DNA from: the human T2T-CHM13v2.0 reference genome, Homo sapiens
Direction: 5' to 3' (one strand)
DNA: 64,000 nucleotides
NCBI RefSeq assembly: GCF_009914755.1
Contig: NC_060935.1
The notes under the pieces were generated by a model. That model made no database searches. It was not told where the DNA came from and saw only the letters and a program-made list of their open reading frames with translations. The first letter of the stretch is position 1. Each line of letters opens with the position of its first letter. This document shows, one piece after another, positions 26,996 through 50,588 of this stretch. A program made the translations under genes and the position numbers.

Positions 26996-27639
26996 TCTAG
27001 ATTCCATTGGTCTGACATCGGGCAAGAGTACCAGAGGCACAGCTAAGCTTGAGAACCACTAGATGATACCCACTGGAAGTCCTGAAATGCCACGTGTTGT
27101 ACAAATCTAGAATGCCTAGGAAGATGTCCATGAACTCTAACTCTGTTTAGAACTGGGAGGTAGAACCAAAATTAGGTTAAGCAGCAATCGTGAGTAGTTG
27201 AAGATGAATGAGAGGAATGTCAGAAAGTACCTAAAAATTGGTTTTTAAAAATTTTTTGCTCTAGAAGAGTTGACAACACTATGTATCAAAAAGACTCTTT
27301 TTTAAAAAAATGAGAAAGCTTGTTTTAAAACATAACTATTCAGGCCCTACTTCAAAAGATTCTGAATTCCACAGCAGTGGGAGCTGGACAAAGATATTTT
27401 TAACCAGCTTCACAATTGATTCTGATGTACTAATAGGATTAGGGACCTCAGCTATACATCATATATTTATGTTTTAGACATAATAAAATGGCAAACCAAT
27501 TGTATTAAAGTGACATTAATTGTGATTCCTATTCCTAATTGAAAACATTTTCTTAGAATTTTCATCTCCACCTGCAAGATGCCCATCTCTTAAAAATCAT
27601 GTACCCATAACCTAAGTACTATAGGCATAGTACCTACTG

Positions 27640-28081
27640 GCAAATATGGGCTTTTGCATGCATACATATATACATACATTTTTTTTAAATATAACTCTAA
27701 ATTAAAGAGGGTGGAAAATTCCACTGTTATTCATAAAAGAAATAAGAGATTCCTTTTTTTCATAATAAACTTTTAAGAGAGTTTGTTCCTAATGGAAATT
27801 CATTCATGGGGAATAAAAATCTTCATGGGGAGGGAAAAAGTACCTTCATATATCATCTACATTGAGGATGCAAATTGTAGAGAAACACACACCAAAGGAT
27901 TTGCATTTAATCAAATCTAGAGCAAGTCATTTCAGAAGCATCACTACCGTGTGCAGAAGGCTTTCCCACCAGGGTCAGGCTGAGCTTTCTAGCAGACCAG
28001 GACCCCTTACCAAGGAGTGAACACCATTCACAAGAAATTCTGCACTGCTGTTAAGAAGGAAATCCACCAGAAACATCCAGA
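27640..28081 (+). promoter_or_regulatory. Putative POU2AF2 promoter and 5'UTR with paired octamer motifs
   Basis: ATGCAAAT at 27868-27875, ATTTGCAT at 27899-27906 and a variant TTTTGCAT at 27652-27659. No ATG seen between 27907 and the start codon. Non-repeat sequence with no CpG island. The exact TSS cannot be read from sequence. Confidence 0.65.
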
Positions 28082-28091
28082 ATGGAAAGTG
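28082..28091 (+). CDS. POU2AF2: POU2AF2 (OCA-T1/C11orf53) coding exon 1: M-E-S plus the first base of V
   Basis: ccagaATGGAAAGTG|gtaagt. Strong Kozak context (A at -3, G at +4) and a consensus donor at 28092. Phase 1 joins in frame to exon 2 (G|TC = Val) and matches the recalled N-terminus MESVPGDYSK. Confidence 0.88.
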
Positions 28092-28909
28092 GTAAGTCAA
28101 CATCAATTATTATAATTTAAAAAAACTTTAATCCTAATTTTTATTTTTGATAACACAAAGTCATAACATAAAACAAAGGTTAAGGAGAAATCTCCTAACT
28201 CTGGCATAGAACATATAAAAATATAAAACACAGATCAAGGACTACCTATTTAGAACTCTTGGTAACATTTTCCTAATTCTAGTTACATTTAATTACTAAT
28301 TGTTTGATTTTGTTTTGCTTTATAGAGTTTACAGAGATATTCTGAAAGATCAACTCAGTTGAACATTATTTTCATAAAATAAGTACTTGAATATCAAAGC
28401 CTTCTTTTCCAATATATAGTGAAATTTTATTTTAGCAAATTTCAGTAAGCTCTCAACTATAGAGAAAGTGCAGAAGAAGAATTCACATTCATATAGAACC
28501 TGAAACATCTTTTATTCATGCATCTTGTTTTAGGCTTTTAAGGCTAAGAAGTAAGGTCATTCTATTTACATATGATAAGGAAGAGTCTGGGCTGTTATTT
28601 CATGAATCTAACTAAATATAGATCTTTCCCCGGATGTTCATCCTGAGATACAAATGTGAATAGTCAACAGAGAGCAAAGCCCACCTGTTCGCGAACAAAT
28701 TTAAGATTGAAAAAGTCAGCACTTTAAATGTTAACAAATGATGACAGAGGGAGCATTTCAAAAATGCCTTGTAAAGTACCTTAAAAGAAAAATTAATATT
28801 TTTTAAATGCTGCAATTCTTCAAAGTCTGATCTCAAAAGGTAAGAAGATAGAAAGAGCTCTAAGAGCATCTATCTTCTGCAGCATAAAATTGGTTATTAG
28901 CTGTGACAA

Positions 28910-38211: not shown

Positions 38212-38321
38212 TCCCAGGAGACTACAGCAAACGAGTGTATCAAGGAGTGAGAGTGAAGCATACAGTCAAAGATCTCCTGGCAGAAAAACGATCCGGGCAG
38301 ACAAGTAACTCAAGACTTAAT
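38212..38321 (+). CDS. POU2AF2: POU2AF2 coding exon 2 (110 nt) encoding the OCA motif: (V)PGDYSKRVYQGVRVKHTVKDLLAEKRSGQTSNSRLN
   Basis: Acceptor ttgcttaag| at 38211 and donor AAT|gtaagt at 38322. YQGVRVKHTVKDLLAEKR aligns with the OCA-B motif YQGVRVKEPVKELLRRKR. Overlaps ORF 38235..38468. Confidence 0.95.
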
Positions 38322-43520: not shown

Positions 43521-45004
43521 ATTAAGTTCTGATTGCTGCTTTTTTTGAACTACACTATTTCAATTGAGTTCTATAAAAGCTAAACATCGAATTATTTTCA
43601 AATAACATCATAAAATTCAATAACCTCTTTATTATATGTAGAAAAAAGGCAATAAACCTAATAGTCACAATTTTTCAGTTTTGTTTTGAAAGTTGGTGAG
43701 TGATTTTCAGATCATTGTTCCTTTTAATCAAGTTTTTCTTAAGCTATCTTATGGATTTATTTAAAATTGTTGAATATACATCAGCTGACATGAGGGGGGA
43801 AAAATGTAAAACTTGCTGTGTAGGAAAAGAAATCAGCTTGGAATTGAAACTGTTGGGGAGATGGGGAAGTGTCGTGTAGTGTAGGGGAAGCTAAGATTGA
43901 GCCTAGGAATCAGGATTTGATGTTCAATTTATTTGTTGATTTATGAACAAAGTAACAGCTCTTTTGCTCGGCTCATTCATCAAAATGCTATAGCCAGGAA
44001 CAGTAAGAAAATAGACATGAAAATTCCTTCAAGTTAATATCCTACATAAACCTAAGGAAAAATAAATGAAGATTTCTGGCTCTGTTTTTAGAAGGTCTGA
44101 ATTGAGTAAAATGTTAAAGAGAAATATCCCAAGTGAGAAATGTATTTAGATAATAACAGCCTTGATTTTTACATGCTCTACATATAGAGACCAAAAGTGA
44201 ACTATTTCCACACAGCGTGATTCTTGCATGCCAATCTCAAGTGTTTGCTTTTCAAATCAGTATTACTTACAGTTATTTTCTTTCTGTACATTATCCTAAA
44301 TTCTTACATTTAAATTATTTCACTGCTAAAATCTCTACATCAAGGGCATACAGGATAAGGCAATATTGTCAGCTGGGTTTCTTGGTTAATAATCTTTCCT
44401 AATTATTTTGGAGGGTTAATATTACAAGCAACGGATAGAAGTATGACAATAGTACGTATTTGATGGGAAATTTTGGGGGAACAGAAGGTGAATAGGCACC
44501 ATTTGGTGTGTTTATGACATAGAGCAATTGCCATAAAGTTGGGCAGACTTTAACTGTAGAACAGATGTGCATTGTCTATCTTAGTCGCTAAAACCGCCTG
44601 TCCTTCCAGCAAGACTGCTAGTTGGACGTTTGTTTAGTTACACATTCAGCTGCTGCTTTGCTATACCAATTGTGCACAATTCAGTTACCACAAGTGTAAA
44701 CATCATGACATCTAGATCTGTGATTTGCATTTGGATTTCTTGTGAAGTATTAAGAGGAAAAAATACATGCAATTGGAAGCTGCATATTCTATCATCTCAA
44801 AGTTTCTTTGATTTCCATGAAACTTTGGGTAACACATCTCTCCTCCACCAAAAGAGAAGCTGCTCCTTCTTTCGTCTGTTTGAACCCCTCCTTCTGGCTA
44901 CAAATGGTCTTGGGTAATTCCCTTCTCTTCTCTGAGCCTCAGTGTCCCTGTCCATAAAAGCAGAGAGTTGGGCCATGCGTCTAAGATTTCTCTAGTTTCT
45001 GTGC

Positions 45005-47855: not shown

Positions 47856-50588
47856 GCATATGGCAGCTTTTATGGTTTTTACAATATCTGGTACATAGCG
47901 GTACTTGATAAATGTCTCAGCAAAGGTGTGCCACACTAAGGTAGATAGGCACTGGATTATAGGGAGCTCTGGATAGCAGCCTTGAAAGTTAGATCCTCCT
48001 GTCATCACTACTATTAATTTTAATATAATATACATAAGTGAAACCATTAGAAAGGCTACTGGGTAACTTTTGTAGGTTTGAAAACTTTATTCCTAGGAAT
48101 AAATTAAAAAAAAAAAAAGTGGAAGCTGTAGTTACCCACATGCTGATTGAGCTATACCACTGTCCTCCATTCTTCCAGTCGAGATGGCTAGAGTTGAAAC
48201 TCCAACCTGGTGCATTTCATTAAGATAATTTCAACTGCTCCCATTCTGTAGTACTAAATATCCAAAAACTCAATCAGTTTAGGATAACAAACCTATAATT
48301 ATACTTATCCATCACGAACTGCCAATTTAAAAAAAAAACAGCTTCAAATGACAAGAAGAAAGAAATGAAAGTCTGAATATTTTGATCAGGATTTGCCACC
48401 AATTTGCTGACCTAACAAGTGATGTGACTTTCTGAAGCCTGCATTTCCTGAATTTAAAAAATCTTCTGAGGGGTGCAGATGGGAGAGGGTCAGCATTCAG
48501 TGTTCTCCGTGTGTTTCCCCCGCTGGGTGCAGCTGTTTCTCCTCCTGACTCAGTAGATTTTCCCAGACCTCAGAACGTGTCCCACCCACTGGCACCCCTA
48601 CCCCCAACATCCAAGGCCAAGCTGAACCCCCTCTGTAATCTGAAAAAGATAAATTCCCTTTTCTCTGATTCAACTAGAGTTTTGCAATCTGAGTTAGCCA
48701 GGAATATAGGGAATAGAAAAGACACATAAAGCAGAAGAATGATTATGTAGCCTCCAAAAGTTCTGATGCTAACGTTAATATTGGGTCAAAGATGAGCATG
48801 GGGGTACAATTGAGTTGACGTTCAGACCTGAGTCCCCTTCCCACCTGTTCAGTTCTCTCTGGGATAAATAGTAATGAATAATAACAATAATTATCACTTA
48901 CCACTGGGCTCTGAAATAGGAAATTTACAAATAATTTCATTTATCTATTTTAAAATATATTTCATGTATCAACACAAGCATGGCAGCTTTCAGAGGGTGG
49001 TACCCATATCTGTTTTTGAGATCAGAAAAATAAGAATCAGGTTGAAAGTAGTGAGGCTTAGATTTGGAACTAGGTTTGTGGGACTCCAGGTCTTCACTTC
49101 ACCCACCCTATTGCCCTCTTACATTATGATTCCAGCCCAAGGATGGGTGAGCTTTGGAGTGGTCACTCTGCTTCAGGCCCTCCTGCTCAGCTCTCATGTC
49201 ACCCTCCAGATTTCCTGTGTGATGGGTGGCCCCAATTATGACTTTTGCTCCCTCTCGGGAACACATTTGTCTCCCCAATCAGCCCCACAGTGTGCCTGTA
49301 GACTGTTCAAGAGATGATGCCACACCCAGCCCAAACCAGTACCAGGACCTTCCTTTCCTACGATACTCAGACATCTTAGAAGACACTGGACCCAAGAAGT
49401 TTTCAATTTCCTTATAGAATTTATCTCCAGTTCTATCCCAGAACCTGCTTTCTGTCCCAGAAACAGCTGCATCCAGTGGGGGGAATATATGGAGAACACT
49501 GAATAGAGTCCCTCTTGGTCATTCTCCACCACTCCTGGACCCCCTGGCCTCGTAGGGCTCTATGTGGCACCTGGCCCTCTCTGTCTGAGAGGAAATCGCT
49601 TCCTGAACCGGAGTCAGAGTGTGCCGTCCTGACCTTGCAGAAGCCTCTTTTCTGTTCTCTAGAGACCTCTGGGGCCTACTCACATGACCCATTTCTCTCT
49701 GAGCTTTTCTTCTTACCTGAAGCTTACTCCCCTGGCATGTCTTTGGATTTCTTTTCTGAATATCGGCAAGTTATTTGAGAGGCTGGCATCCATGGCTCAC
49801 TCATGGGACTGGATGCAGAATGCCACTTCTTCCACTTTAGAAGGCAGAGACAATATCAGCCCCCTTTCGAGGGCTGGAAGAGATTCCTGAGCCCAGTGAA
49901 ACATAGAGTTTACCAGATCAATTGACCTGCTGTCTCTGGTGACCCACCCCTTCAATGCTCTCCCAGCCCCCGTGGTGTCTGGAATTCTCTCATAGTTGTA
50001 CACACTGTGGAGCCTTACATATATTCTCAATAAATATAACAGCTGATAAGGAAAGGGGAGAATACTTTCCTTAAGGCTTTACCTTCTTATGAAATATGAG
50101 AAAACATGGGGAGAGGAAGACTACCAATGCCCTCATTTCCTAGATACTAAGCCAATTATTAGTATTCCATGCTAGAAACAGATAGAACCCTTTACTAATG
50201 TAGAAATCTAATACCATACTACTGCTCTTTGGCATTCTAATGGTGGTGCTAAACAACAATGAAAATGCCAAAAGAAGAAGAAGTCGAATACAGGTAAGAG
50301 CAAAAACTGGTACACAGGCCTTAAAATTAAGGAGTTGGTCATACATAAATCCAAGGAAGAAATCACAGCCTCCACAACCATCAGCATATTGTCACACCTG
50401 AGAACATAACATGTGGATAGTATATTGAATCTGTGATGGGAAAAAGGGTAAGCTTTGGACCGAGGCATCCCGAGCTCTGCAGGTATGAGTGCCAAACAGT
50501 TGGCACCACTGCAATTACAGGAAATACGGTCTTCTCTGATTTCTTAAAATTTACCATAAAAATTATTTTTCACCTCTTCAACTCATAA

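What the first reader, a model, noticed from the sequence alone, without database searches (positions are those of the whole stretch)
27850..27915. Two perfect inverted octamers just upstream of the OCA-T1 start: a candidate positive feedback loop
Seen: AGG-ATGCAAAT (27868-27875) and AGG-ATTTGCAT (27899-27906), 23 bp apart and about 180-210 bp upstream of the ATG, plus a variant at 27652. A perfect octamer is expected only once per several to tens of kb, so two within 40 bp at this promoter is striking. Both keep the position-5 A that OCA-B needs for ternary complex formation. Inference: POU2F3 with OCA-T1 drives OCA-T1's own promoter, a self-sustaining switch for tuft identity.
Basis: partly seen in the sequence, partly recalled or inferred. 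Interest (0 to 1): 0.75.

Follow-up and report, generated by a model that had tools for sequence, protein, structure and literature searches.

The report
Twin octamers at the OCA-T1 promoter
Two perfect octamer DNA motifs sit just upstream of the start of the human tuft-cell co-activator gene POU2AF2 (OCA-T1); they are likely where its partner POU2F3 binds to boost the gene's own expression, a feedback loop already suggested in print but not yet pinned to these bases.

Summary
Perfect octamers lie at 27868-27875 (+) and 27899-27906 (-), 23 bp apart, at -85 and -54 of the RefSeq start of POU2AF2. A close pair is rare: 1,958 in 3.1 Gb, about 1e-4 for a given 200 bp; 12 of 40,000 local shuffles hold two sites. 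The stretch is single-copy and the inverted match stops at the 8-mer. Exon 1 supplies the only annotated ATG ahead of the POU-binding peptide in exon 2, and neither downstream start has a perfect octamer. So these sites would drive the functional isoform only.

The loop is not new as an idea. A preprint reports POU2F3 and OCA-T1 ChIP peaks assigned to POU2AF2 and proposes positive feedback; another cites mutual loss after knockout. I found no paper mapping it to these bases, and could not test occupancy or conservation. Against a simple switch: NCI-H1048 depends on POU2F3 with OCA-T2, not OCA-T1; B-lymphoma cells drive the gene through TCF3/SET1A; intronic octamers could carry the peaks. The position-5 A argument adds nothing, since any perfect octamer has it.

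Verdict: a likely cis-element for a suspected loop; modest novelty.

The parts
27868..27875 (+). Perfect octamer 1, -85 to -78 of the RefSeq start of POU2AF2
27899..27906 (-). Perfect octamer 2, -54 to -47; inverted relative to site 1; 23-bp spacer; position-5 adenines 30 bp (about 2.9 helical turns) apart
27792..27799 (+).
27652..27659 (-). One-mismatch octamer at -301, beside a short TA/CA-rich run; background-level evidence only
27953..28091 (+). POU2AF2 exon 1 (RefSeq NM_198498.3): 129-nt 5'UTR without upstream ATG, start codon at 28082, GT donor at 28092
   Evidence: annotation supplied with the finding
38212..38321 (+). Exon 2; encodes the OCA peptide (about R11-R30 at 38232-38291) and holds no ATG of its own, so the peptide needs the exon-1 start codon
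   Evidence: residue numbers agree with Y13, V16, R17, V18, L25, L26, K29, R30 in PMC12755459
27569..27574 (+). Single E-box at -384, E2A/ASCL type by recalled consensus; possible non-POU input, not tested
   Evidence: TCF3 ChIP at the mouse Pou2af2 promoter in 10.64898/2026.08.30.748132

Best explanation
The two perfect octamers lie in the proximal promoter of the only annotated POU2AF2 start that yields the POU-binding form of OCA-T1, and they likely bind POU2F3, which would recruit OCA-T1 itself and so raise the gene's own transcription in tuft cells. Shown by sequence: the sites, their position, their rarity, and that exon 1 supplies the ATG for the OCA peptide. Shown in papers, at gene level only: POU2F3 and OCA-T1 peaks assigned to POU2AF2, and loss of its mRNA when the complex is removed. 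Inferred: that these bases carry the binding; that two independent monomers bind (the spacing is too wide for a PORE or MORE dimer); that the bound complex opens this CpG-poor, TATA-less promoter with SWI/SNF. The loop would maintain expression rather than start it. Another input must open the promoter first.
For: Rarity of about 1e-4 at the promoter of an octamer-dependent co-activator. It is the top octamer cluster of the 64-kb window under a simple count score. The 601-bp stretch is single-copy and the inverted match ends at the 8-mer on both sides, so it is not a duplicated or hairpin relic. No perfect octamer within -500..+200 of the exon-2 start or the alternative first exon. OCA-T1 needs an octamer with A5 to bind POU2F3 (PMC12755459). 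[quoted passage not shown] Deleting Pou2af2 lowers Pou2f3 'and vice versa' in lung cancer lines (10.1101/2022.10.19.512785, citing Wu 2022). C11orf53 sgRNAs lower its own mRNA by log2 -3.5, like POU2F3 (-3.5), AVIL (-3.3) and GFI1B (-2.4) (PMC9534498 Table S2). C11orf53 is a 'P element' gene, nearest to POU2F3-linked H3K27ac (PMC6075037). SWI/SNF inhibition lowers accessibility at the locus and its mRNA. Ig promoters depend on an upstream octamer.
Against: No peak coordinates were visible. The published peaks are nearest-gene assignments, and four more perfect octamers lie in the introns (34614, 35907, 42170, 44723). The feedback sentence is absent from the peer-reviewed Gut version (0 hits for 'feedback'). 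The fall in its own mRNA after CRISPR cutting can be nonsense-mediated decay or collapse of the tuft state. In lung cancer lines OCA-T1 binds mostly distal sites. NCI-H1048 depends on POU2F3 and OCA-T2 but not OCA-T1, attributed to differential expression. In mouse B-lymphoma cells the promoter input found was TCF3/SET1A, and POU2F2 knockdown is described as moving OCA-T1 to the cytoplasm, with no loss of expression mentioned in that section. Perfect octamers can stay unbound (Syk intron) or exclude the co-activator (CD36, title only). Conservation is untested.
Confidence: 0.58

Rival explanations
1. The sites are functional but generic class-II POU elements. OCT1 or OCT2, with or without any OCA co-activator, would support the promoter, while tuft or B1-cell specificity comes from other inputs (TCF3/SET1A, distal enhancers). 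There would be no OCA-T1-specific loop at these bases.
For: POU2F1 and POU2F2 are expressed in NCI-H526. POU2AF2 is expressed in B1 cells and some lymphomas, which have little POU2F3, and there it partners OCT2, mostly at promoters. TCF3 occupies and induces the mouse promoter. One E-box lies at -384 in human.
Against: HEK293T cells express no C11orf53 although OCT1 is ubiquitous, so OCT1 alone is not enough. Expression tracks POU2F3 in lung tumours and is reported to fall with POU2F3 loss (second-hand).
Confidence: 0.2
2. Feedback is real but runs through intronic or distal enhancers of the 11q23.1 cluster; the twin octamers are redundant or a chance pair in an AT-rich promoter.
For: Most OCA-T1 peaks and P elements are intronic or intergenic. 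A second octamer cluster lies at 44565-44818. Pou2af2 and Pou2af3 isoforms are co-regulated, which the authors ascribe possibly to distal enhancers. About 1,958 such pairs exist genome-wide, and the exact 23-bp spacing is at background, 8 against 263/31.
Against: Chance at this place is about 1e-4 to 3e-4. The older gene model spans 30.4 kb, matching exon 2 to the gene end, so this promoter would have been scored as a distal element 10 kb upstream in older analyses (inference).
Confidence: 0.17
3. The octamers mediate repression or damping: POU2 factors without OCA-T1, or with OCA-T2, would hold the promoter off, which could explain the mutually exclusive use of OCA-T1 and OCA-T2.
For: Class II POU factors can repress, and POU2F3/OCA-T1 also supports Polycomb repression (PMC10920751). 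Site 2 ends 47 bp before the start, close to the core promoter.
Against: All perturbation data seen point to activation at gene level.
Confidence: 0.05

Closest known systems
Immunoglobulin promoter octamer (OCT1/2 with OCA-B)
   Same: Perfect octamer upstream of the start, read by a class II POU factor and an OCA co-activator (PMC13043367).
   Different: Two sites rather than one; no consensus TATA box in -450..+140; the target is the co-activator gene itself; function untested.
POU2F3/OCA-T1 target elements (AVIL, GFI1B, SOX9, POU2F3 itself)
   Same: Same motif and likely the same complex; autoregulation of POU2F3 is already suggested.
   Different: Known elements are mostly distal enhancers; this one is promoter-proximal.
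Positive feedback at POU2AF2 proposed in 10.1101/2023.08.24.554659
   Same: Same loop and same proteins.
   Different: Gene-level peak assignment with no sites named; the sentence is not in the Gut version.
Syk exon-2 alternative promoter selected by Oct2
   Same: A perfect octamer beside one of two alternative promoters biases which start is used (PMC3960507).
   Different: Single site; B cells; not autoregulatory; there binding was shown by ChIP.
POU2AF1 (OCA-B) promoter
   Same: Paralogous co-activator in the same cluster.
   Different: Driven by CREB/ATF, NFAT and NF-kB in the passages read; no perfect octamer in 8 kb around its start. The twin octamer is not a shared feature of the cluster's promoters.
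PORE and MORE dimer elements
   Same: Inverted arrangement of POU sites.
   Different: Those are compact overlapping half-site palindromes (recalled; named); here two full octamers are 23 bp apart.

Membership tests
Octamer cis-element read by POU2 factor plus OCA co-activator | Perfect octamer with adenine at position 5 | tested here: met
   Both sites perfect; requirement stated
Octamer cis-element read by POU2 factor plus OCA co-activator | Lies in a promoter or enhancer position | tested here: met
   -85 and -54 of the RefSeq start; the start is taken from the annotation, no CAGE data seen
Octamer cis-element read by POU2 factor plus OCA co-activator | More than chance would give | tested here: met
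   About 1e-4 to 3e-4
Octamer cis-element read by POU2 factor plus OCA co-activator | Occupied in cells at these bases | tested here: inconclusive
   Peaks assigned to the gene; tracks are images and no coordinates were found
Octamer cis-element read by POU2 factor plus OCA co-activator | Flanks permit the ternary complex | not testable with these tools
   The CD36 paper on co-activator exclusion is not held; site sequence matters
Octamer cis-element read by POU2 factor plus OCA co-activator | Conserved across mammals | not testable with these tools
Positive autoregulatory loop | Own mRNA falls when the activator complex is removed | tested here: inconclusive
   log2 -3.5 after its own sgRNAs, confounded by decay; POU2F3-knockout table S6 lies beyond the part of the file held; second-hand statement
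Positive autoregulatory loop | Mutation of the sites lowers expression | not testable with these tools
   Needs editing or reporter assays
Bistable switch | Hysteresis or self-sustained on state after a transient input | not testable with these tools
   No data; NCI-H1048 can be read either as an off state or as insufficiency
PORE/MORE dimer element | Compact palindrome of half-sites | tested here: not met
   Two separate octamers, 23-bp spacer, no symmetry beyond the 8-mer; definition recalled
Repeat-derived or duplicated element | Other genomic copies or a masked repeat | tested here: not met
   1 of 1 match is the locus itself (the tool skips very common words); not among the longest masked stretches listed in the annotation

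The most novel reading that the evidence does not exclude
The twin octamer is an isoform-selective amplifier. POU2F3-OCA-T1 feeds back only on the exon-1 promoter, which alone makes the POU-binding form, giving a threshold that locks in tuft identity. The strain differences in full-length to short Pou2af2 ratio would then be partly a read-out of the loop rather than its cause. OCT2-OCA-T1 could reuse the same two sites in B1 cells and lymphoma.
Probability: 0.25. Interest if true: 0.6.

Novelty: new member of a known kind. Interest (0 to 1): 0.36.

Why it matters
OCA-T1 is needed for tuft cells, is a dependency of tuft-like small cell lung cancer and of some lymphomas, and is tied to colorectal cancer risk at 11q23.1. 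What sets full-length isoform transcription is stated to be unknown. These 39 bases give a precise target: two base edits would test whether the suspected feedback is direct and promoter-borne. A positive result would confirm an expected circuit and surprise few specialists. The isoform selectivity is the fresher point.

Tried and rejected
Repeat or duplication origin: rejected; single copy, no symmetry beyond the 8-mer. A recurring 23-bp composite element: rejected; 8 genome-wide, the background rate per spacing. 'AGG' as part of the motif: rejected; opposite sides in motif orientation. Position-5 A as evidence: rejected as circular. Shared octamer promoter across the cluster: not found; no perfect site within -1500..+500 of the POU2AF3 5'-most start or the POU2AF1 start, one at -830 of COLCA1 (other POU2AF3 starts were not examined). 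STAT6-type site at +74: 19 in the window against 25 expected, so not significant. The genome search's reversed-pattern control contains CG and is not a fair control; I did not use it. The bacterial promoter scan is irrelevant here. Peak coordinates sought without success: PMC12755459 supplements, PMC10920751 file 4 of 4, PMC12013567 12 of 16 files, with Fig. S4 as images, PMC9534498 tables cut within Table S2. Wu et al. 2022 and Shore et al. 2002 are not held. Supplements of bioRxiv preprints were not seen; those and Wu 2022 may already show a peak on this promoter.

Full report
OBSERVATION. The window is human chr11 (T2T-CHM13) and the finding lies just upstream of POU2AF2 exon 1. Perfect octamers sit at 27868-27875 (+) and 27899-27906 (-), 23 bp apart. 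They are at -85 and -54 of the RefSeq start (27953), and 214 and 176 bp before the ATG at 28082. One-mismatch sites lie at -161, -301 and -395, but these occur 1.7 per kb in the window (109 sites) and mean little. The promoter is 33% GC, with one CpG in 700 bp and no consensus TATA box.

IS IT CHANCE? The window holds 6 perfect octamers against 4.4 expected, so single sites are ordinary. The pair is not. Markov models give 6e-5 to 1e-4 for two or more sites in a fixed 200 bp. Of 40,000 shuffles of the 300 bp upstream, 12 have two or more. The genome holds 263 + 327 + 680 + 688 = 1,958 pairs with a 5-35 bp spacer (possibly lower bounds), about 1.3e-4 per 200 bp. The motif is the one this gene's product reads, so the test is close to a prior prediction, though the scan reads many windows. 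The exact spacing is not special: 8 genome-wide. The stretch is single-copy. The inverted match does not extend past the 8-mer on either side. Under a simple count score it is the best octamer cluster in the window; the next is at 44565-44818.

Any perfect octamer has the position-5 A, and 107 of 109 near-matches keep it. The 'AGG' flanks are on opposite sides in motif orientation. A perfect octamer need not be bound: Oct2 bound one at the Syk exon-2 promoter but not adjacent intronic sequence (PMC3960507, passages). The CD36 octamer is reported to exclude OBF-1 (title in reference lists only).

ISOFORM CONTEXT. Exon 1 codes for three residues and one base. The OCA peptide is in exon 2, which has no ATG, and its numbering matches the crystal-structure paper. 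Neither the exon-2 start nor the alternative first exon at 50233 has a perfect octamer within -500..+200. In mouse a short isoform starting in exon 2 lacks the peptide, the full-length fraction tracks tuft cell number, and its control is called unknown (10.1101/2022.10.19.512785, passages). Feedback at these sites would therefore favour the functional isoform; this is inference. The older human gene model spans 30.4 kb, which fits exon 2 to the gene end (30.4 kb) and not exon 1 to the end (40.6 kb). Older peak annotations would have called this promoter a distal element.

WHAT IS IN PRINT. A preprint re-analysing GSE186614 found POU2AF2 and POU2F3 binding at POU2AF2 and POU2AF3 and proposed a positive feedback loop (10.1101/2023.08.24.554659, passages). 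The Gut version lacks the word 'feedback' (PMC12013567, passages), though its Fig. S4 legend still lists reads at POU2AF2 (the panels are images). Deleting Pou2af2 lowers Pou2f3 'and vice versa' (citing Wu 2022, which is not held). In NCI-H526, C11orf53 sgRNAs cut its own mRNA by log2 -3.5, POU2F3 by -3.5, AVIL by -3.3 and GFI1B by -2.4 (PMC9534498, parts 2-3 of 5 and Table S2 rows). C11orf53 is a P-element gene (PMC6075037, passages and table row). SWI/SNF inhibitors close the locus and lower its mRNA (10.1101/2024.01.21.576304, passages; PMC10849552, section 6). A search for six phrasings of 'POU2AF2 promoter' found one paper, on lymphoma, with no mention of 'octamer'. Searches listed no title or abstract on these sites. 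The library lacks most subscription journals, so absence from print is not established.

EVIDENCE AGAINST A SIMPLE SWITCH. NCI-H1048 depends on POU2F3 and OCA-T2 but not on OCA-T1, and the two co-activators are described as mutually exclusive (PMC9576728, part 1 of 2). POU2F3 with a co-activator is thus not enough to switch the gene on, unless the loop needs OCA-T1 itself. In mouse B-lymphoma cells the promoter is driven by TCF3 and SET1A, OCA-T1 partners OCT2, and OCT2 knockdown is described as relocating the protein (10.64898/2026.08.30.748132, passages and section 7). Which mouse start TCF3 binds was not visible. OCA-T1 peaks in lung cancer lines are mostly distal, and four intronic perfect octamers could carry the reported peaks.

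MECHANISM. Most likely (0.58) each octamer binds one POU2F3. Each then docks OCA-T1 through its N-terminal peptide at A5 (shown structurally on a generic octamer). The complex would recruit SWI/SNF (interaction reported) and keep the exon-1 promoter open. The two A5 positions are about 2.9 turns apart, so both complexes would face roughly the same side; cooperativity is speculation. The loop would maintain a state started by another input. Rivals: generic OCT1/OCT2 sites (0.20), distal feedback with incidental sites (0.17), repression (0.05).

COMPARISON AND VERDICT. It works like an immunoglobulin-type octamer promoter (PMC13043367, passages). It meets the sequence criteria of a POU2/OCA element; occupancy, conservation and necessity are untested. 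It is not a PORE/MORE element. The paralogous POU2AF1 promoter has no perfect octamer in 8 kb and uses CREB/ATF, NFAT and NF-kB (PMC3575799, passages). The finding is a real, improbable motif pair that gives a candidate address for a loop others have already suggested. Novelty: new member of a known kind. Interest 0.36.

Noticed in passing
window 27860-27865: A SOX/HMG-like hexamer abuts octamer 1 with a gap of about two bases. SOX9 is a tuft-lineage gene. By recall, the spacing differs from the canonical cooperative SOX-OCT composite. Not tested.
   Followed up: no
window 28027-28036 and 27550-27558: A STAT6-type site in the 5'UTR (+74) and a GAS-type site at -403. IL-13/STAT6 drives tuft expansion, so these could be the starting input, but STAT6-type sites are at background (19 seen, 25 expected).
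   Followed up: partly
window 44565-44818: Second octamer cluster in intron 2: one perfect and four one-mismatch sites within 250 bp. A candidate POU2F3 enhancer and an alternative home for the published peaks.
   Followed up: no
window 34614, 35907, 42170: Three further single perfect octamers in introns 1 and 2.
   Followed up: no
L006:4052-4059: A perfect octamer about 830 bp upstream of the COLCA1 start, inside the POU2AF3 gene span; another at L006:1828. May relate to the binding reported at POU2AF3.
   Followed up: no
PMC9534498 Table S2: POU2AF1 mRNA rises (log2 +2.6, from a very low level) when OCA-T1 is knocked out in NCI-H526, hinting at cross-regulation or enhancer competition in the cluster.
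   Followed up: no
G000 genome-wide: Several direct octamer pairs recur with near-identical 14-bp purine-rich spacers (e.g. C1:13905249, C1:14662923, C1:51004524, C1:70655217), suggesting a repeat family that carries twin octamers. Unrelated to this locus.
   Followed up: no
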